A DNA stretch of 32,000 nucleotides from Bacillota bacterium (GCA_016280725.1 JAEEHF010000076.1:44183-76182); one strand, 5' to 3'; numbered from the stretch's first letter, positions 25,458-32,000 are shown. Numbers and translations: made by a program. Notes: a model not told the origin generated them from the sequence alone.

Positions 25458-25486
25458 TTGACAATAATATCATACCAATGTATTAT
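25458..25486 (+). promoter_or_regulatory. Sigma-A type promoter of the VirB4/Tad-like locus (TTGACA - 17 bp - TATTAT)
   Basis: -35 TTGACA at 25458-25463, a 17-nt spacer ending in TG, and -10 TATTAT at 25481-25486. Confidence 0.6.
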
Positions 25487-25512
25487 TCTAATCGAACAAG
25501 GTGAAGGGACGT

Positions 25513-26130
25513 ATGACACTATTTAGGTGTTTTACGCCCTTTTTTATTTTCTGTGGAGGATTTCATACATTGGTTTCAATTAAAAACATGTTTTCAAAAT
25601 CTAAGAAGGTTGAGCCAAAATCTTTTCAAGAATGGCTTGGAATAAAAGAGATTTTAAATGGCAAAATACTATTAACCAATAATAGAAGCATATATATTCT
25701 AAAAGTGCTTCCAATTAACTTTAAGCTAAAATCAGAACTTGAGCAAAATTCCATTTTAATGCATTATAAAAGTTTTTTAACAAATTTAGATTCTAAAATT
25801 CAAATTATAATTTCTAGTCATAAAACTGACGTTTCAAGTCATGTCGAAATAGTTTCAAAAGTCACAAAGGAAAATCCCAAAATTAAAGATGCGGTAAATG
25901 ATTATATTGATTTGGTTTATAGCATTGTTAACCAGCAAGGAGCGATTACAAAGGATTTCTACATTGCAATAGAGGCTTCAACAAATATTGAGAATGAAGT
26001 TATGAAAGTTAAGGAAGCTCTTATTCAGTGTGGAAACGAATCGGTTATACCTTCAATTCAGGAAATAGAAGAATTGATTAGGACATATATTAATAAAAGA
26101 GTTCAAAACATCATAGGAGGTGTTCAGTGA
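25513..26130 (+). CDS. VirB4 N-terminal-domain-like protein (separate first cistron of a split VirB4/TraE-type ATPase)
   Basis: The segment ILNGKILLTNNRSIYILKVLPINFKLKSELEQNSILMHYKSFLTNLDSKIQIIIS matches, by eye, the first N-terminal subdomain of Firmicutes VirB4 proteins (DGI..Y.K.i.f.dINY.L...e...if..w..FLN.......Q). The start is uncertain: GTG 25501, ATG 25513 (best SD) or ATG 25589. The stop overlaps the next start (GTGA). Confidence 0.55.
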   Translation: MTLFRCFTPFFIFCGGFHTLVSIKNMFSKSKKVEPKSFQEWLGIKEILNGKILLTNNRSIYILKVLPINFKLKSELEQNSILMHYKSFLTNLDSKIQIIISSHKTDVSSHVEIVSKVTKENPKIKDAVNDYIDLVYSIVNQQGAITKDFYIAIEASTNIENEVMKVKEALIQCGNESVIPSIQEIEELIRTYINKRVQNIIGGVQ

Positions 26131-27932
26131 AAAGCTTCATTAGAACAAAAGAAGATACGTTTACTCTATCTAAGAGCAAAAACAATGAGGGAGACATCCT
26201 TTGCTCAAGTTATATTAATTTTGAAAATCCTAAATTTGCTGAAATTGACGGATTCTATTATGCATCACTTTTGGTAGTCAATTATGCAAGAGAGATGGAG
26301 AAAGTATTTTTGGATAAACTGATGTCTCTTGATGTTGATATAGAATTATCAATTCAATACGAAAAGCTTGATTCTTATAGCATTATTAAAGAACTTACAT
26401 ACAACATAGGAAATACAGGCGCAACAATTAAAACCAGTAGTGAAAATAGGCAAGACATTGACTTCATTGACAGTAAATATTCAGATGCAAAAAACATTAG
26501 AAAAGCGCTTCAGGTAGGAGATGAGAAACTATTCTATCTAAGTATATGCGTAGGTTCATTTGCTAAGGACCAAAAGGAACTTGAGAAAAATTTAGAAAGA
26601 ATCGAAAGTGTTTGTGCTTCGATTGGCTTAAGTACAATACGAGCAAACTATAGGCAGGAAGATTCATTAAAATTCACACTTCCATTTGTAAATTCTATAA
26701 AAAGTATAGAAGAAATCACACAAAGAAATGTTCTTACTTCGGGGCTGGTGGCTACATATCCATTTTTATCAAATAGGCTATTTGATAAAAATGGAGTATT
26801 AATTGGTATTAACTCTTTTGATAATTCAATTATCATGTTAGACAGATTTGATACTAATCAGTACAAAAATGCAAATATGTTCATAGTAGGAACATCAGGT
26901 TCTGGAAAATCATATTTCACAAAACTAATGATTAGTCGAAATAGGTTCTTAAATATAAGACAATTTGTTATTGATCCAGATAGAGAATATGAGATGTTAT
27001 GTAGTAATCTTGCGGGCTCAATCATTAAGATAGGTCCTCAAGGAAGTATAAATATGTTTGATATTCGAAATACTGCTTTAGAAGATGAGGAATCATATTT
27101 AAAGGCCAAAGTTGCTAAACTAGTTTCGATAATATCGCTTATGCTTGGTTTAGGTACTAAAGATGAGGAAGCTTCTTTGGAGGAACTAATAATTAAATGC
27201 TATAAAGATAAAGGAATAACAGAAGATAATAATTCGCTTTTTCAGGAGAACAGCAAAAGTATTCTACTAGGAAAAAGAATGTTTAAAAATACAAATGATA
27301 TGCCGGTATTAAAAGATTTATATGAACTAATCAAGAAGGATGAATTACTTAAGAAGTATTCAAAAATATTAAAAGTTTATATATCAGGAAGTTTAAGCTA
27401 TTTTAACAACCATACCAATATTAACACGGATAATAAACTTGTAGTTGTTGATGTTCACGATGTTAGTGAAGACGTTTTGCCAGTTGTAATGTGTATAATT
27501 ACTGATTATTTTTGGGACGAAATTAAAAGAAATAGAAATGAGAAGAAGATTATATATTTTGATGAAATATGGAAATTAATCAGTAAAAGCGAATACTCGG
27601 CAGACTTTGTTTTTAAACTTTTTAAAACAATTCGAAAATTCGGAGGTGCTGCAACAGCTATTACTCAAGATATTTCGGATTTCTTTATGCTTGAAGATGG
27701 TAAATATGGAAAAGCAATATTAAATAATTCTAGTATAAAATGCATGTTTCAGCTTGAGGAGACAGATATTAAACTTTTGGAAGATGTAATCAGGATATCT
27801 GACGAGGAAAAGTACAGATTAGTGAACATGAAGAGGGGCACTACATTAATTCATGCGGGAAGAAACGTTTTACTTGCTGATGTTATTTCATCAAAGAACG
27901 AACATAATTATATAACCACAGATATAGTATAG
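26127..27932 (+). CDS. VirB4/TraE(TrsE)-type conjugation/T4SS ATPase (AAA_10/DUF87-like), lacking the first N-terminal subdomain
   Basis: Walker A is IVGTSGSGKSYFTKLMI, followed by IDPDREYE. Walker B is KKIIYFDEIWKL, followed by ITQDISDF. The upstream region (IDGFYYASLLVVNYAREMEKVFLDKLMSLDVDIELSIQY) is like the second VirB4 N-subdomain. GTG 26127 lies 6 nt after an AGGAGG inside the previous ORF. Confidence 0.75.
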   Translation: MKSFIRTKEDTFTLSKSKNNEGDILCSSYINFENPKFAEIDGFYYASLLVVNYAREMEKVFLDKLMSLDVDIELSIQYEKLDSYSIIKELTYNIGNTGATIKTSSENRQDIDFIDSKYSDAKNIRKALQVGDEKLFYLSICVGSFAKDQKELEKNLERIESVCASIGLSTIRANYRQEDSLKFTLPFVNSIKSIEEITQRNVLTSGLVATYPFLSNRLFDKNGVLIGINSFDNSIIMLDRFDTNQYKNANMFIVGTSGSGKSYFTKLMISRNRFLNIRQFVIDPDREYEMLCSNLAGSIIKIGPQGSINMFDIRNTALEDEESYLKAKVAKLVSIISLMLGLGTKDEEASLEELIIKCYKDKGITEDNNSLFQENSKSILLGKRMFKNTNDMPVLKDLYELIKKDELLKKYSKILKVYISGSLSYFNNHTNINTDNKLVVVDVHDVSEDVLPVVMCIITDYFWDEIKRNRNEKKIIYFDEIWKLISKSEYSADFVFKLFKTIRKFGGAATAITQDISDFFMLEDGKYGKAILNNSSIKCMFQLEETDIKLLEDVIRISDEEKYRLVNMKRGTTLIHAGRNVLLADVISSKNEHNYITTDIV

Positions 27933-30496: not shown

Positions 30497-31437
30497 TGGT
30501 TACAATTCTAAATGTTGCATTTTTCATTTTATTATTAATAACTGCTTACGCAGTACTATTTAATTTGCACGAAAAAGATATTAGTAAGGTTATCCAAAGA
30601 TTTGTAGAAGAAAAAAATAAATCATATTTTGAAAAATATAGCAAAAGTAGTAACAGACGAAACGGTAAAGTTAATATAGTATCAAATTATATATATAAGA
30701 TAACACACTTATTTGATATGGCGGGGATAAAACAGAATCTAATAATAAACCCAATAGCAATTATTGTTTTGTGTGGTGTGTCATTTGTTGTATGCTTTTG
30801 CGTTGCAATTTATGTTTTCAACCTTATACCTTTGTCGCTGATCATTTCTTTGCCAGGAATGATTATACCGGTTGTCATACTTCAGTTACTTGCAAAAAGA
30901 AGAGAAAGTGCAATTGAAAATTCTATACTAGATCTAGTTTTGCAACTAAGAAATCTTACTAGAATTAATAATGATATCGTATACGCGTTGGGACAGGTTA
31001 AGACGATAAGCCCATTACAAGATTACATAGACGAGTTTTTGTCTGAATTGCACAATGGAATAAAGTTTGAATTTGCGGTAGAAAAATTAAAGCTAAAACT
31101 ATCCTTCAAGGTGCTTAGGGATCTGTTTGACAATATTTCACACTGCTACATATTTGGTGGTGACTATCAAGAATTGATGAGAAAAAGTTATGTTATGATA
31201 TCCAAAGTTCAAAAGGAAAAGAAGGATAGGAAAAATGAGACACGAAGTGCAAGAATAGTCCTGGGAATATTGATATTTTTAGATTTGTTTGTATATTTTA
31301 CATATATCAAGAATAATTATGAGAACTATGTTTTAATGTCAAACCAATTATTAGGTCAAATAATAATATATTGGAATTTTATTAGTATTTGGTTTTTGTT
31401 TATTCTTATGAGAAAAGTTCAAAGACTAGATTATTAA
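30496..31437 (+). CDS. TadB/TadC-like inner-membrane platform protein (T2SSF family)
   Basis: The topology is an N-terminal TM helix, a TM pair, a cytoplasmic helical domain of about 130 aa (...ENSILDLVLQLRNLTRINNDIVYALGQV...GIKFEFAVEKL...GGDYQELM), then C-terminal TM helices. GTG 30496 overlaps the TAG of the ATPase gene. Confidence 0.6.
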   Translation: MVTILNVAFFILLLITAYAVLFNLHEKDISKVIQRFVEEKNKSYFEKYSKSSNRRNGKVNIVSNYIYKITHLFDMAGIKQNLIINPIAIIVLCGVSFVVCFCVAIYVFNLIPLSLIISLPGMIIPVVILQLLAKRRESAIENSILDLVLQLRNLTRINNDIVYALGQVKTISPLQDYIDEFLSELHNGIKFEFAVEKLKLKLSFKVLRDLFDNISHCYIFGGDYQELMRKSYVMISKVQKEKKDRKNETRSARIVLGILIFLDLFVYFTYIKNNYENYVLMSNQLLGQIIIYWNFISIWFLFILMRKVQRLDY

Positions 31438-31502
31438 TTTGGAATTGTTGGGGAATATAATAGAATGGAGGAAAGTGTCATGGGGGAGACATTATAAAAA
31501 AT

Positions 31503-32000
31503 ATGGCAGGAACACTTAGCCTAGATTTAACAAAAGAAAAAGGAATCGATTTAGGAGAAAAAGCAAATAGTATTGTATCAAATATTTCCGATGCTTTTTC
31601 AAATGCTGTAAAGAAAGGAACAGAAAGCATTAAATTTCCAGATGGATTTGCTGAAAAGGTCAGAACTGGTTTTGAAAAGATTGATTTAAAGGAAATCGGG
31701 AATAGTGCAGCGCTAAGTGCACTCAAAACTGGGATGAATAATTTAGGAATGAAAACAAGCACTTTTAATAATCTCAAAGATATATTCGATGCCGTGAGAA
31801 GCGGAGATCTAAAGAAGGGATTATCTTCAGGGCTTAATGTTGCAATTTCAGCGTTAAAGGTTCCTTCAACAATTAAAAATTTGATAAAAGACGGAAAAAA
31901 TATTATTTTGGAAAAGACTTTTGAAGATGAATTAAAAACTATAATGAAAAAGCAGCAAAATACAATTAGTAGAATAGATAAAAAATGCATTCAAATGGAA
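31503..32000 (+). CDS. Hypothetical protein of the VirB4/Tad-like locus, 3' end outside the window
   Basis: This ORF is not in the supplied track because it has no stop inside the window. ATG 31503 is followed by 166 sense codons, which I translated manually: MAGTLSLDLTKEKGIDLGEKANSIVSNISDAFSNAVKKG.... The listed minus-strand ORF 31478-31990 is its antisense shadow. Confidence 0.6.
   Translation, partial: MAGTLSLDLTKEKGIDLGEKANSIVSNISDAFSNAVKKGTESIKFPDGFAEKVRTGFEKIDLKEIGNSAALSALKTGMNNLGMKTSTFNNLKDIFDAVRSGDLKKGLSSGLNVAISALKVPSTIKNLIKDGKNIILEKTFEDELKTIMKKQQNTISRIDKKCIQME

What the first reader, a model, noticed from the sequence alone, without database searches (positions are those of the whole stretch)
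25458..32000. Single-promoter locus combining a VirB4-type conjugation ATPase with a Tad-pilus motor (TadZ-like, CpaF/TadA-like, TadB-like)
Seen in sequence: one promoter at 25458-25486 is followed by six same-strand, tightly packed or overlapping ORFs.
- 25513-26130: VirB4 N-subdomain-like.
- 26127-27932: VirB4/TraE-type ATPase with Walker A GTSGSGKS and Walker B IIYFDEIW.
- 27943-29190: pseudo-receiver domain plus ParA-like P-loop, as in TadZ/CpaE.
- 29210-30496: CpaF/TadA/VirB11-family ATPase.
- 30496-31437: T2SSF-type platform protein.
- 31503 onward: unknown protein, runs past the window end.

Established knowledge: VirB4 is the hallmark ATPase of conjugative/T4SS mating-pair-formation systems. 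TadZ-TadA-TadB/C is the core motor of Tad/Flp (type IVc) pili. I do not know of a described Tad locus that includes VirB4.

Inference: this may be a chimeric or uncharacterised pilus/DNA-transfer apparatus. It starts exactly where minD canonically follows minC, right behind a 30-bp perfect hairpin, so it is probably an acquired insertion. No integrase, relaxase, coupling protein or pilin is visible in the window, and the locus continues beyond it.
Basis: partly seen in the sequence, partly recalled or inferred. Interest (0 to 1): 0.7.

Follow-up and report, generated by a model that had tools for sequence, protein, structure and literature searches.

The report
Chromosomal VirB4 plus Tad-like motor operon
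A six-gene operon joining a conjugation-type VirB4 ATPase to a Tad-pilus-type motor is real, but it is a vertically inherited chromosomal module found just upstream of gyrA in hundreds of uncultured gut Clostridia, and nobody appears to have described it.

Summary
One promoter (25458-25486) precedes six tightly packed same-strand ORFs:
- a split VirB4 (N-domain ORF plus ATPase);
- a receiver-plus-MinD/ParA ATPase with a TadZ-like fold;
- a CpaF/TadA-like T2SSE ATPase;
- a single-domain T2SSF platform protein;
- a lineage-restricted all-helical protein of 230 aa.

Two parts of the interpretation fail.
- It is not a recent insertion replacing minD. minD and minE lie 10 kb upstream in the same window, and composition is uniform across the region.
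- The locus does not continue. It stops after ORF6, and gyrA starts about 625 nt later.

At least 573 species-representative genomes carry the VirB4 homologue, all uncultured gut or rumen Clostridia (one is TANB77/CAG-508). In 57 of 58 loci with enough sequence, gyrA follows. VirB4 and GyrA co-diverge (Mantel r = 0.89).

The core (ORF1-2-3-6) lies between gyrB and gyrA in a sister clade, near T4CP, VirB2-, VirB6- and VirB3-like genes. The CpaF/TadB pair occurs only in the window's clade, where pilin-like genes are enriched nearby. That clade also has a conserved leader terminator hairpin.

Best reading: a domesticated T4SS-derived machine with an added type IV filament motor. Its substrate is unknown. 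I found no published description.

The parts
25360..25425 (.). Perfect 31-bp-arm hairpin with a 4-nt loop just after the minC stop. It is flanked by an A-rich stretch on the left and a T-rich stretch on the right. It is probably the minC operon terminator, not part of the module proper.
   Evidence: Sequence read. The exact arms are unique in the window. The inverted repeat extends imperfectly to 53 nt. It is not conserved in the related loci aligned.
25458..25486 (+). Sigma-70-type promoter, TTGACA-17-TATTAT.
   Evidence: It matches 11 of 12 consensus positions. The TTGAC(A/T) and TAT(T/G/C)AT hexamers are conserved at the same position in 14 related loci. The region as a whole has fewer promoter-like matches than its shuffles, so the support comes from conservation and not from the scan.
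25505..25545 (+). Conserved leader stem-loop followed by a U-tract, resembling an intrinsic terminator or attenuator. It lies between the promoter and ORF1.
   Evidence: RNAalifold on 11 orthologous leaders predicts 15 pairs, 9 of them with compensatory double changes. MFE values are -18 to -26 kcal/mol, and the element is present only in the T2SSE/F-containing clade. No Rfam family matches.
25570..26130 (+). ORF1: a free-standing VirB4/TraC N-terminal domain (TrsD/TraD-like). The maximal ORF starts at 25501. The likely start is TTG 25570 or ATG 25588.
   Evidence: NCBIfam VirB4_plasma profile positions 86-279 at 5.5e-6 and TrsD/TraD at 6.9e-4. Pfam PF26593 TraC-like in homologues. Fused to ORF2 in 756-aa homologues. 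The alignment shows conservation beginning at about residue 30 of the maximal ORF.
26127..27932 (+). ORF2: VirB4-type ATPase body with intact Walker A and Walker B motifs.
   Evidence: Pfam P-loop_TraG and AAA_10. NCBIfam CD1110 family, 305 bits. PDB 4AG5 at 7.7e-41. Walker residues are invariant in 10 homologues. More than 1000 homologues were found.
27943..29190 (+). ORF3: receiver-like domain plus a MinD/ParA-family ATPase, i.e. a TadZ/CpaE-like architecture.
   Evidence: AlphaFold2 pLDDT 82, with a (beta-alpha)5 domain at residues 1-115 and an ATPase domain at 155-385. Foldseek: 3EA0 at 1e-9, 3FKQ (TadZ) at 1.2e-8 over both domains, MinD about 3e-8. Response_reg Pfam hits in some homologues. 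Homologous to the third gene of the sister-clade module (hhalign probability 100%).
29210..30496 (+). ORF4: CpaF/TadA-like secretion ATPase of the T2SSE family.
   Evidence: Pfam T2SSE 3.7e-25. PDB CpaF scores 106-112 bits over nearly the full length, against 81-88 bits for VirB11. NCBIfam VirB11 155 bits and TadA-family 125 bits, both below their cutoffs. Mean column identity is 79% across the clade.
30496..31437 (+). ORF5: polytopic membrane protein with one T2SSF domain, a TadB/TadC-like platform protein.
   Evidence: Pfam T2SSF 21.9 bits, below the gathering score. 16 of 17 family members hit T2SSF, best 6.8e-7. Hydrophobic segments are visible in the translation. No PDB sequence match.
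31503..32000 (+). ORF6: a lineage-restricted soluble all-alpha protein. The full length is 230 aa, so it ends 195 nt beyond the window. It is the last gene of the module.
   Evidence: The full-length identical protein is P0121. AlphaFold2 pLDDT 83.5, ten helices. No Foldseek PDB match below E 0.9. No Pfam or NCBIfam family. Only 156 cluster representatives among 1.84 billion proteins. Homologous to the last gene of the sister-clade module (hhalign probability 99.3%).

Best explanation
**What it is.** The six genes form one operon. Transcription starts at a conserved promoter and passes through a conserved terminator-like leader hairpin. The operon encodes the cytoplasmic and inner-membrane part of an envelope machine with three intact P-loop ATPases.

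**Origin (shown).** The core is VirB4 split into ORF1 and ORF2, the TadZ-like ATPase ORF3, and ORF6. This core derives from a monoderm (MPF-FATA-type) type IV secretion system that became a fixed, vertically inherited chromosomal module in a large lineage of uncultured gut Clostridia, which includes TANB77/CAG-508. It always lies just upstream of gyrA. In the sister clade it lies between gyrB and gyrA, next to genes for a coupling protein and for VirB2-, VirB6- and VirB3-like proteins. In the window's clade alone, a CpaF/TadA-like ATPase and a single TadB-like platform protein sit between ORF3 and ORF6.

**Mechanism (inferred, not shown).**
- VirB4 energises a T4SS-type membrane channel.
- The CpaF-like hexamer on its TadB-like platform assembles a type IV-like filament from pilin-like proteins encoded elsewhere, or else serves as the VirB11-equivalent partner of VirB4.
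- ORF3 positions or gates the machine.
- Leader read-through sets how strongly the operon is expressed.
- No relaxase, integrase or sign of mobility is seen, so the machine probably serves a host function rather than transfer of a mobile element. Candidates are DNA or protein exchange, or contact with other cells. The nearest analogy is the chromosomal, relaxase-less T4SS of Patescibacteria.
For: **Gene families.**

**Conservation and distribution.**
- At least 573 species-representative genomes encode a relative, all uncultured gut or rumen Clostridia. One is Ca. Scatovivens, placed in TANB77/CAG-508.
- Synteny over 90 loci is tabulated. gyrA follows in 57 of 58 loci that have at least 9 kb downstream of VirB4.
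- The ORF3 and ORF6 families are shared by both clades.
- VirB4 and GyrA co-diverge: Mantel r = 0.89, 0 of 999 permutations reach it.
- GyrA and VirB4 trees both split the loci into the same two groups, with and without T2SSE/F.

**Against recent acquisition.**
- No compositional break.
- The closest plasmid-borne VirB4 is at most 32% identical, against 45-65% within the lineage.
- VirB4 is interrupted about as rarely as housekeeping genes: 2 of 91 loci, against 2 of 66 for gyrA.

**Intact motors.** Walker residues are invariant in ORF2, ORF3 and ORF4.

**Further T4SS parts in relatives.**
- A T4CP (TrwB_AAD_bind 2.8e-9), a VirB2-like protein with a signal peptide and two transmembrane segments, a polytopic 297-aa protein and a 97-aa protein with two transmembrane segments lie beside dnaB-dnaI.
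- VirB3- and VirB6-like genes also occur in three loci of the window's clade.

**Pilin link.** ORFs with prepilin-like N-termini lie within 10 kb in 7 of 18 T2SSE-positive loci against 1 of 67 T2SSE-negative loci, p = 4.5e-5.

**Regulation.** The promoter and the leader hairpin are conserved, with 9 covarying pairs.

**Analogy.** Patescibacteria T4SSs are chromosomal, lack a relaxase and lie close to the origin (PMC12102498; PMC12857230).
Against: - No pilin, prepilin peptidase, VirB6/VirB8-like protein, coupling protein or cell-wall hydrolase is visible in the window.
- In the closest relative with context (L096/L097), none of these lies within 10 kb either. VirB4 there is frameshifted into 448 + 167 aa in independent assemblies.
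- The T2SSE gene is split in 5 of 23 loci, about 3 independent cases. Some species may therefore be losing parts.
- Functional coupling between the VirB4 part and the CpaF/TadB part rests only on operon structure.
- The pilin enrichment comes from phylogenetically related loci and a rough sequence pattern.
- ORF5 is below the Pfam threshold on its own.
- Nothing experimental exists for any member.
- ORF3 matches plain MinD/ParA structures as well as it matches TadZ.
Confidence: 0.6

Rival explanations
1. Two unrelated systems happen to be neighbours: a relic VirB4/ParA module and an independent type IV filament motor (CpaF/TadB) that landed inside it. There is no physical or functional coupling between them.
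For: The sister clade keeps ORF1-2-3-6 without any T2SSE/F, and no remnants are detectable even at E <= 1. The core therefore does not need the pair. Pilin-like genes track the T2SSE/F pair and not VirB4. Firmicute Tad loci normally stand alone without VirB4.
Against: The pair sits inside the operon, between ORF3 and ORF6, with overlapping or near-overlapping reading frames. It is under the same conserved promoter and leader in every member of the clade. It brings no TadZ, CpaB, second platform protein or pilin of its own, so it is incomplete as a stand-alone Tad system. ORF4 is the most conserved gene of the operon.
Confidence: 0.2
2. It is a decaying remnant of an integrated conjugative element that inserted near gyrA in an ancestor and is drifting towards loss.
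For: The VirB4 is of the CD1110 conjugative type. Most T4SS structural genes are missing from the window. VirB4 is frameshifted in L096/L097. T2SSE is split in several loci.
Against: The ORFs are intact with invariant catalytic residues across at least 573 species. The module co-diverges with GyrA. Its interruption rate equals that of gyrA, gyrB and dnaA in the same assemblies. The promoter and structured leader are conserved. A relic would not stay intact over divergence down to 45% identity.
Confidence: 0.1
3. It is a cell-division or chromosome-handling device. The MinD-like ATPase and the HerA/FtsK-superfamily VirB4 would act on the chromosome or the septum, which would explain the linkage to minC, mreBCD, gyrB/gyrA, dnaA and dnaB/dnaI.
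For: The neighbours are persistently replication and division genes. ORF3 resembles MinD in sequence and fold.
Against: Canonical minD and minE are present in the window. ORF2 matches VirB4 specifically and not FtsK or HerA. The T2SSE/T2SSF proteins and the VirB2/3/6-like partners are envelope-machine parts. Location near the origin is also seen for Patescibacteria T4SSs and was ascribed to gene dosage.
Confidence: 0.07
4. It is an ordinary Tad/Flp pilus locus and the VirB4 call is spurious.
For: TadZ-like, CpaF-like and TadB-like genes lie in the canonical order.
Against: The VirB4 assignment is strong. No Flp pilin, prepilin peptidase, CpaB, second platform protein or TadE-like gene is present, unlike the real Firmicute Tad loci examined.
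Confidence: 0.03

Closest known systems
Chromosomal, relaxase-less T4SS of Patescibacteria/CPR (Quinonero-Coronel et al. 2025, PMC12102498; reviewed in PMC12857230)
   Same: Both are monoderm MPF-FATA-derived VirB4 systems that are chromosomal and broadly conserved in an uncultured lineage. Both lack a nearby relaxase and lie next to origin-proximal replication genes (dnaA/dnaN there; dnaA-gyrB-gyrA-dnaB/dnaI here). Both are accompanied by VirB2-like pilins, here seen in the sister clade.
   Different: The host phylum differs (Bacillota, Clostridia). This module has a TadZ-like ATPase, the ORF6 family and, in the window's clade, a CpaF-like ATPase with a TadB-like platform. None of these is reported for Patescibacteria. 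I did not test whether the VirB4s are sister groups.
Gram-positive conjugative T4SS (MPF-FATA; VirB4 of the CD1110 family; the TrsD/TraD + TrsE/TraE arrangement of pSK41/pGO1-type plasmids)
   Same: The VirB4 sequence family is the same, scoring 305 bits against the CD1110 model. The N-terminal domain is a separate ORF, as in TrsD/TraD. Relatives have T4CP, VirB3-like and VirB6-like partners.
   Different: This module is not on a mobile element and no relaxase was seen. It is vertically inherited. Identity to any plasmid VirB4 is at most 32%. It contains a T2SSE-family ATPase, which a 2025 review says Gram-positive T4SSs lack.
Tad/Flp (type IVc) pilus motor: TadZ-TadA(CpaF)-TadB/TadC
   Same: The order and kinds of the three genes match. 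The best solved relative of ORF4 is CpaF. ORF3 has the two-domain TadZ fold. ORF5 has a single T2SSF domain, like TadB/TadC.
   Different: There is only one platform protein. There is no Flp pilin, prepilin peptidase, CpaB/RcpC or TadE-like gene (compare). ORF3 is shared with a sister clade that has no TadA/TadB at all. The nearby pilin-like genes are large type IV-pilin-like proteins, not Flp.
pAW63/pXO2-type Bacillus conjugation regions with VirD4, VirB4 and VirB11 homologues (PMC9673590)
   Same: This is a Gram-positive T4SS gene set that includes a VirB11/T2SSE-family ATPase beside VirB4.
   Different: It is plasmid-borne and conjugative. No T2SSF platform or TadZ-like gene is reported there. 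I did not compare the sequences.
ParA-like ATPases attached to T4SSs (Agrobacterium VirC1; ParA of the Neisseria gonorrhoeae DNA-secreting island). This comparison is recalled from general knowledge and was not checked here.
   Same: A MinD/ParA-family ATPase is encoded with a T4SS and is thought to position the substrate or the machine.
   Different: Those proteins lack the receiver-like N-domain and belong to diderm systems that have relaxases.

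Membership tests
VirB4 / TraC-type T4SS ATPase | C-terminal P-loop ATPase domain of the VirB4 type with Walker A and Walker B motifs | tested here: met
   Pfam P-loop_TraG 88 bits (gathering score 25.8) and AAA_10 43.7 bits (gathering score 27.5). PDB VirB4 4AG5 at 7.7e-41. GTSGSGKS and DE are invariant.
VirB4 / TraC-type T4SS ATPase | VirB4 N-terminal domain | tested here: met
   It is present as the separate ORF1. Evidence: NCBIfam VirB4_plasma positions 86-279, PF26593 in homologues, and fusion in 756-aa relatives.
VirB4 / TraC-type T4SS ATPase | Passes the NCBIfam equivalog cutoff for the CD1110 conjugative family | tested here: not met
   It scores 305.1 bits against a cutoff of 325. 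It is related to the curated equivalog but falls outside it.
Conjugative MPF-FATA T4SS / ICE | Relaxase and coupling protein encoded with the mating-pair genes | tested here: not met
   Neither is in the window. No relaxase family was called in any Pfam-annotated locus. A T4CP is found only in sister-clade loci.
Conjugative MPF-FATA T4SS / ICE | Resides on a mobile element (integrase, att sites, patchy distribution) | tested here: not met
   Its position upstream of gyrA is fixed in 57 of 58 loci. It co-diverges with GyrA. No integrase was called nearby. Composition is uniform.
Conjugative MPF-FATA T4SS / ICE | VirB6-, VirB3-, VirB8-like channel proteins and a cell-wall hydrolase | tested here: inconclusive
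   All are absent from the window. VirB3-, VirB6- and VirB2-like genes occur near dnaB in relatives. No VirB8-like protein or hydrolase was identified. The rest of this genome could not be searched.
Tad/Flp (type IVc) pilus system | TadA/CpaF ATPase | tested here: met
   T2SSE 88.8 bits (gathering score 24.9). CpaF is the best solved relative, at 106-112 bits against 81-88 bits for VirB11. The NCBIfam TadA-family and VirB11 models are both below their cutoffs.
Tad/Flp (type IVc) pilus system | Two platform proteins, TadB and TadC | tested here: not met
   There is only one T2SSF-like gene, ORF5. Genuine Firmicute Tad loci show two.
Tad/Flp (type IVc) pilus system | Flp-type pilin and a dedicated prepilin peptidase (TadV/CpaA) | tested here: not met
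   No such ORF lies in or beside the module. No prepilin-like N-terminus was found anywhere in the window. Genes elsewhere in the genome could not be checked.
TadZ/CpaE | Atypical receiver domain fused to a MinD/ParA-type ATPase | tested here: met
   The AlphaFold2 model has a (beta-alpha)5 domain plus an ATPase. Foldseek matches TadZ 3FKQ at 1.2e-8 over 428 columns. Some homologues have Response_reg hits.
TadZ/CpaE | Sequence-level membership and co-occurrence with TadA/TadB | tested here: inconclusive
   No CpaE/TadZ model was hit. The best sequence matches are MinD and ParA. Orthologues in the sister clade occur without TadA/TadB.
Patescibacteria-type exapted chromosomal T4SS | Chromosomal, lineage-wide, without a relaxase, close to the origin, with VirB2-like pilins | tested here: met
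   for the lineage as a whole. In the window itself only the chromosomal and relaxase-less features are visible.
Patescibacteria-type exapted chromosomal T4SS | VirB4 belongs to the Patescibacteria VirB4 clade | not tested

The most novel reading that the evidence does not exclude
The module is the core of a previously unrecognised, non-mobile envelope machine. It would be a true hybrid in which a VirB4-driven T4SS channel and a CpaF/TadB-driven type IV filament motor work as one apparatus, positioned by a TadZ-like ATPase. It would be part of the core genome of TANB77-like gut Clostridia and would serve an important host function such as cell-to-cell exchange of DNA or nutrients, comparable to the essential T4SS of epibiotic Patescibacteria.
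Probability: 0.3. Interest if true: 0.85.

Novelty: new variant of a known kind. Interest (0 to 1): 0.66.

Why it matters
T4SSs of Gram-positive bacteria are thought to be almost exclusively conjugation devices of mobile elements, and to lack VirB11-family ATPases. This module departs from that picture in three ways:
- it is a T4SS-derived gene set fixed in the chromosome of a very large, uncultured, gut-abundant clostridial lineage;
- it is tied to gyrA and to the replication-origin neighbourhood;
- in one clade it is wired into the same operon as a Tad-type motor.

If the parts work together, it would be a second example, after Patescibacteria, of a monoderm T4SS exapted for a host function. 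It would also be the first such system carrying a type IV filament motor.

It offers concrete handles for study: three ATPases, an unknown helical partner (ORF6) and a conserved leader. These could help explain how poorly understood gut Clostridia interact with their surroundings.

Tried and rejected
- **Exact-sequence look-ups.** Look-ups of the window's own VirB4 failed, so the 98.7-kb source contig could not be retrieved. Only short identical JGI contigs were recovered through ORF6.
- **PADLOC.** Only generic HerA, mad8 and DndH P-loop similarities appeared. I dropped the defence-system reading.
- **Rfam.** The leader and the minC hairpin gave only meaningless miRNA-type hairpin hits, so no known riboswitch is present.
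- **ORF6.** It has no Pfam, NCBIfam or PDB sequence match and no Foldseek match despite a confident model.
- **ORF5.** Its profile has no PDB sequence match.
- **The 'ORF3 replaces MinD' idea.** Rejected, because true minD and minE are in the window.
- **The 'more conjugation genes lie just beyond the window' idea.** Rejected for this genome and for its closest relative.
- **Plasmids.** No plasmid combines the two halves. Firmicute plasmid Tad loci lack VirB4.
- **Literature.** Six searches found no description of this module.
- **Gene loss in the sister clade.** A search for degenerate T2SSE/F remnants there found none.

Full report
**1. What is in the window**

The window is low-GC DNA (about 30%) with a steadily rising cumulative GC skew and no compositional break. 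Its right half reads as follows:

| Coordinates | Gene | Note |
|---|---|---|
| 15056-15874 | minD | |
| 15904-16731 | minE | |
| 16800-17900 | rodA | |
| 17976-18942 | dus | split into two ORFs |
| 18973-20214 | unknown, 413 aa | |
| 20242-21283 | mreB | split into two ORFs |
| 21303-22139 | mreC | |
| 22136-22660 | mreD | |
| 22739-24719 | PBP2-type transpeptidase | split into two ORFs |
| 24731-25345 | minC | |
| 25501 onward | the six ORFs of the finding | |

The six ORFs are co-directional and tightly packed. The hairpin after minC has perfect 31-bp arms. The promoter TTGACA-17-TATTAT lies at 25458-25486.

**2. Identity of the six proteins**

- **ORF2** is a VirB4-type ATPase.
  - Pfam P-loop_TraG 6.6e-25 and AAA_10 2.5e-11.
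  - NCBIfam 'VirB4-like conjugal transfer ATPase, CD1110 family' at 305 bits, just under the 325-bit cutoff. The match covers profile positions 179-731.
  - The Thermoanaerobacter VirB4 structure 4AG5 matches at 7.7e-41.
- **ORF1** supplies the missing N-terminal part.
  - It matches positions 86-279 of the VirB4_plasma model and, weakly, TrsD/TraD.
  - Its homologues carry Pfam PF26593 TraC-like. In some species the two ORFs are fused into a 756-aa protein.
- **ORF3** is a MinD/ParA-family ATPase.
  - The AlphaFold2 model (pLDDT 82) has an N-terminal (beta-alpha)5 receiver-like domain, a linker and the ATPase.
  - Foldseek returns the ParA-family structure 3EA0 (1e-9), the two-domain Eubacterium rectale TadZ 3FKQ (1.2e-8 over 428 columns) and then MinD structures.
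- **ORF4** is a T2SSE ATPase. Its best solved relative is CpaF, ahead of VirB11 (106 against 81 bits for the single sequence, 112 against 88 for the family profile).
- **ORF5** is a polytopic membrane protein with a single T2SSF domain. It is below threshold on its own, but 16 of 17 family members match.
- **ORF6** is a 230-aa all-helical protein (pLDDT 83.5).
  - It has no detectable relative in Pfam, NCBIfam, PDB sequences or PDB folds.
  - It has only 156 cluster representatives among 1.84 billion proteins.

**3. The module ends inside six genes**

The full ORF6 (P0121) was found on short JGI and NCBI contigs identical to the window. There it is followed by a 144-aa minus-strand tail-anchored ORF. 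About 625 nt after ORF6 comes the start of gyrA, recognisable from [26 protein letters not shown]. No further secretion genes follow.

**4. It is not a recent insertion**

- The VirB4 homologue occurs in at least 573 species-representative genomes. All are uncultured gut or rumen Clostridia MAGs. One of them, Ca. Scatovivens, belongs to TANB77/CAG-508.
- I tabulated gene order in 90 loci. gyrA follows on the same strand in 57 of 58 loci that extend at least 9 kb past VirB4, at a median distance of 3.2 kb.
- The upstream neighbour varies: minC, rsmI, tatD or gyrB.
- Pairwise VirB4 identity tracks GyrA identity across 57 loci. Mantel r is 0.89, and none of 999 permutations reaches it.
- No integrase or relaxase family was called within 10 kb in any Pfam-annotated locus.
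- The closest plasmid VirB4 is at most 32% identical, against 45-65% within the lineage.
- minD and minE are present in the window, so nothing has replaced them.

**5. Two versions of the module**

- **Sister clade (39 of 57 loci).** The order is dnaA...gyrB-[ORF1][ORF2][ORF3-like][ORF6-like]-gyrA.
  - hhalign confirms that the third and fourth genes are homologous to ORF3 and ORF6, with probabilities of 100% and 99.3%.
  - Convergent on gyrA lies a second gene string. It encodes a coupling protein (TrwB_AAD_bind, TraG-D_C), a VirB2-like protein (signal peptide plus two transmembrane segments, weak PF18895), a polytopic 297-aa VirB6-like protein and a two-transmembrane 97-aa VirB3-like protein. 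Then come dnaB(DnaD-type) and dnaI.
- **Window's clade (18 of 57 loci).** The T2SSE/T2SSF pair is inserted between ORF3 and ORF6, and gyrB is no longer adjacent.
  - Both the GyrA tree and the VirB4 tree separate the two versions cleanly.
  - The sister clade has no T2SSE/F remnants.
  - VirB3- and VirB6-like genes next to dnaB are also seen in three loci of the window's clade: L001, L015 and L019.
  - They are not seen in the closest relative, L096/L097, where other genes follow gyrA.

**6. Extra features of the window's clade**

- **Leader.** Every locus has the promoter followed by a stem-loop and U-tract. In the window the stem-loop is at 25505-25540 and the T-run at 25540-25545. RNAalifold finds 15 pairs, 9 of them with compensatory changes, in 11 sequences.
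  - This places the real ORF1 start downstream of the leader, at TTG 25570 (9 nt after GGAGGA) or ATG 25588. That agrees with where protein conservation begins.
  - The leader looks like an attenuator. What relieves termination is unknown, and Rfam has no match.
- **Pilin-like genes.** ORFs with type IV prepilin-like N-termini (for example MKKNNG|ISLISLVVTIV..., and one with Glu at position +5) lie within 10 kb in 7 of 18 T2SSE-positive loci. The figure is 1 of 67 for T2SSE-negative loci (Fisher p = 4.5e-5).
  - These loci are phylogenetically related, so the p-value overstates independence.
  - None is visible in the window itself.

**7. Signs of function and of erosion**

- Catalytic residues are invariant in all three ATPases. 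ORF4 is the most conserved gene, with 79% mean column identity.
- VirB4 is interrupted in 2 of 91 loci. This is the same rate as gyrA, gyrB and dnaA in these assemblies.
- VirB4 is frameshifted in L096/L097 in independent assemblies.
- T2SSE is split in about three independent lineages.
- The window has three frameshifted housekeeping genes but six intact module ORFs.

**8. Interpretation**

*Shown.* This is a conserved, vertically inherited operon. It combines a split VirB4, a TadZ-like ATPase, a CpaF-like ATPase, a TadB-like platform protein and a novel helical protein. It is anchored upstream of gyrA.

*Inferred.* The core is an exapted monoderm T4SS. The CpaF/TadB pair either assembles a type IV-like filament from pilin-like proteins encoded elsewhere or acts as the VirB11-like partner of VirB4. 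ORF3 positions the machine. The leader gates expression. The substrate is unknown.

*Closest described parallel.* The chromosomal, relaxase-less, origin-proximal T4SS of Patescibacteria (PMC12102498; PMC12857230).

*Context from the literature.*
- A 2025 review states that Gram-positive T4SSs universally lack VirB11 homologues.
- pAW63-type Bacillus plasmids do carry one (PMC9673590).
- Firmicute Tad loci on plasmids have CpaB, two platform proteins, small pilin-sized ORFs and DUF4320 proteins, but no VirB4.

**9. Verdict**

The chimeric, uncharacterised apparatus is supported. The acquired insertion at the minD position and the continuation beyond the window are not.
- Novelty: a new variant of a known kind.
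- Interest is moderately high. The combination is unusual, lineage-wide and undescribed, but its function rests on inference alone.

Noticed in passing
window 17976-18942 (dus), 20242-21283 (mreB), 22739-24719 (PBP2): Three housekeeping genes are each split into two overlapping ORFs in different frames. This points to indel errors in the assembly or to real frameshifts. Relatives have these genes intact.
   Followed up: partly
window 15904-16731: The MinE homologue is unusually long. It has 275 aa, with the MinE domain at residues 27-98 and about 175 extra C-terminal residues. A long MinE (at least 217 aa) also occurs in L007.
   Followed up: no
window 26759-26795: A 17-bp perfect stem (TCCATTTTTATCAAATAGGCTATTTGATAAAAATGGA) lies inside the VirB4 coding region. 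The terminator scan flagged it, but no T-run follows.
   Followed up: no
L091 2554-2988 (-), just beyond the window end; also L001 16276-16551 (-), L005 16286-16450 (-), L097 10765-11025 (-): A small minus-strand ORF lies between ORF6 and gyrA. In the three translated copies (L091, L001, L005) it has a conserved C-terminal membrane anchor ending ...GY..TF.LFK. Its function is unknown.
   Followed up: partly
L005 6871-9255; L016, L020-L024 about 18.4-19.7 kb; L007 26-517: Proteins of about 290 to 794 aa have type IV prepilin-like N-termini (MKKNxG|ISLISLV...). The largest has Cys-rich repeats and Ig-like regions. They lie beside the module or beside gyrA in the T2SSE-positive clade.
   Followed up: partly
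L097 5900-6000 (same in L096): VirB4 is frameshifted into 448 + 167 aa, between Walker A and Walker B, in the closest relative with context. The frameshift recurs in independent assemblies.
   Followed up: partly
sister-clade loci, e.g. L015, L029, L081 (dnaI): The dnaI (IstB-like) gene appears as two ORFs in 17 of 46 loci. This is far more often than for other genes, which suggests a genuine two-gene arrangement or a recurrent frameshift.
   Followed up: no
window 9436-11163 and 9199-9271: A 575-aa protein has a C-terminal serpin domain (6e-47). A tRNA gene lies just upstream of it.
   Followed up: no
window 2297-2716: A Gp49/HigB-like toxin-family ORF, Pfam Gp49 at 1.1e-15.
   Followed up: no
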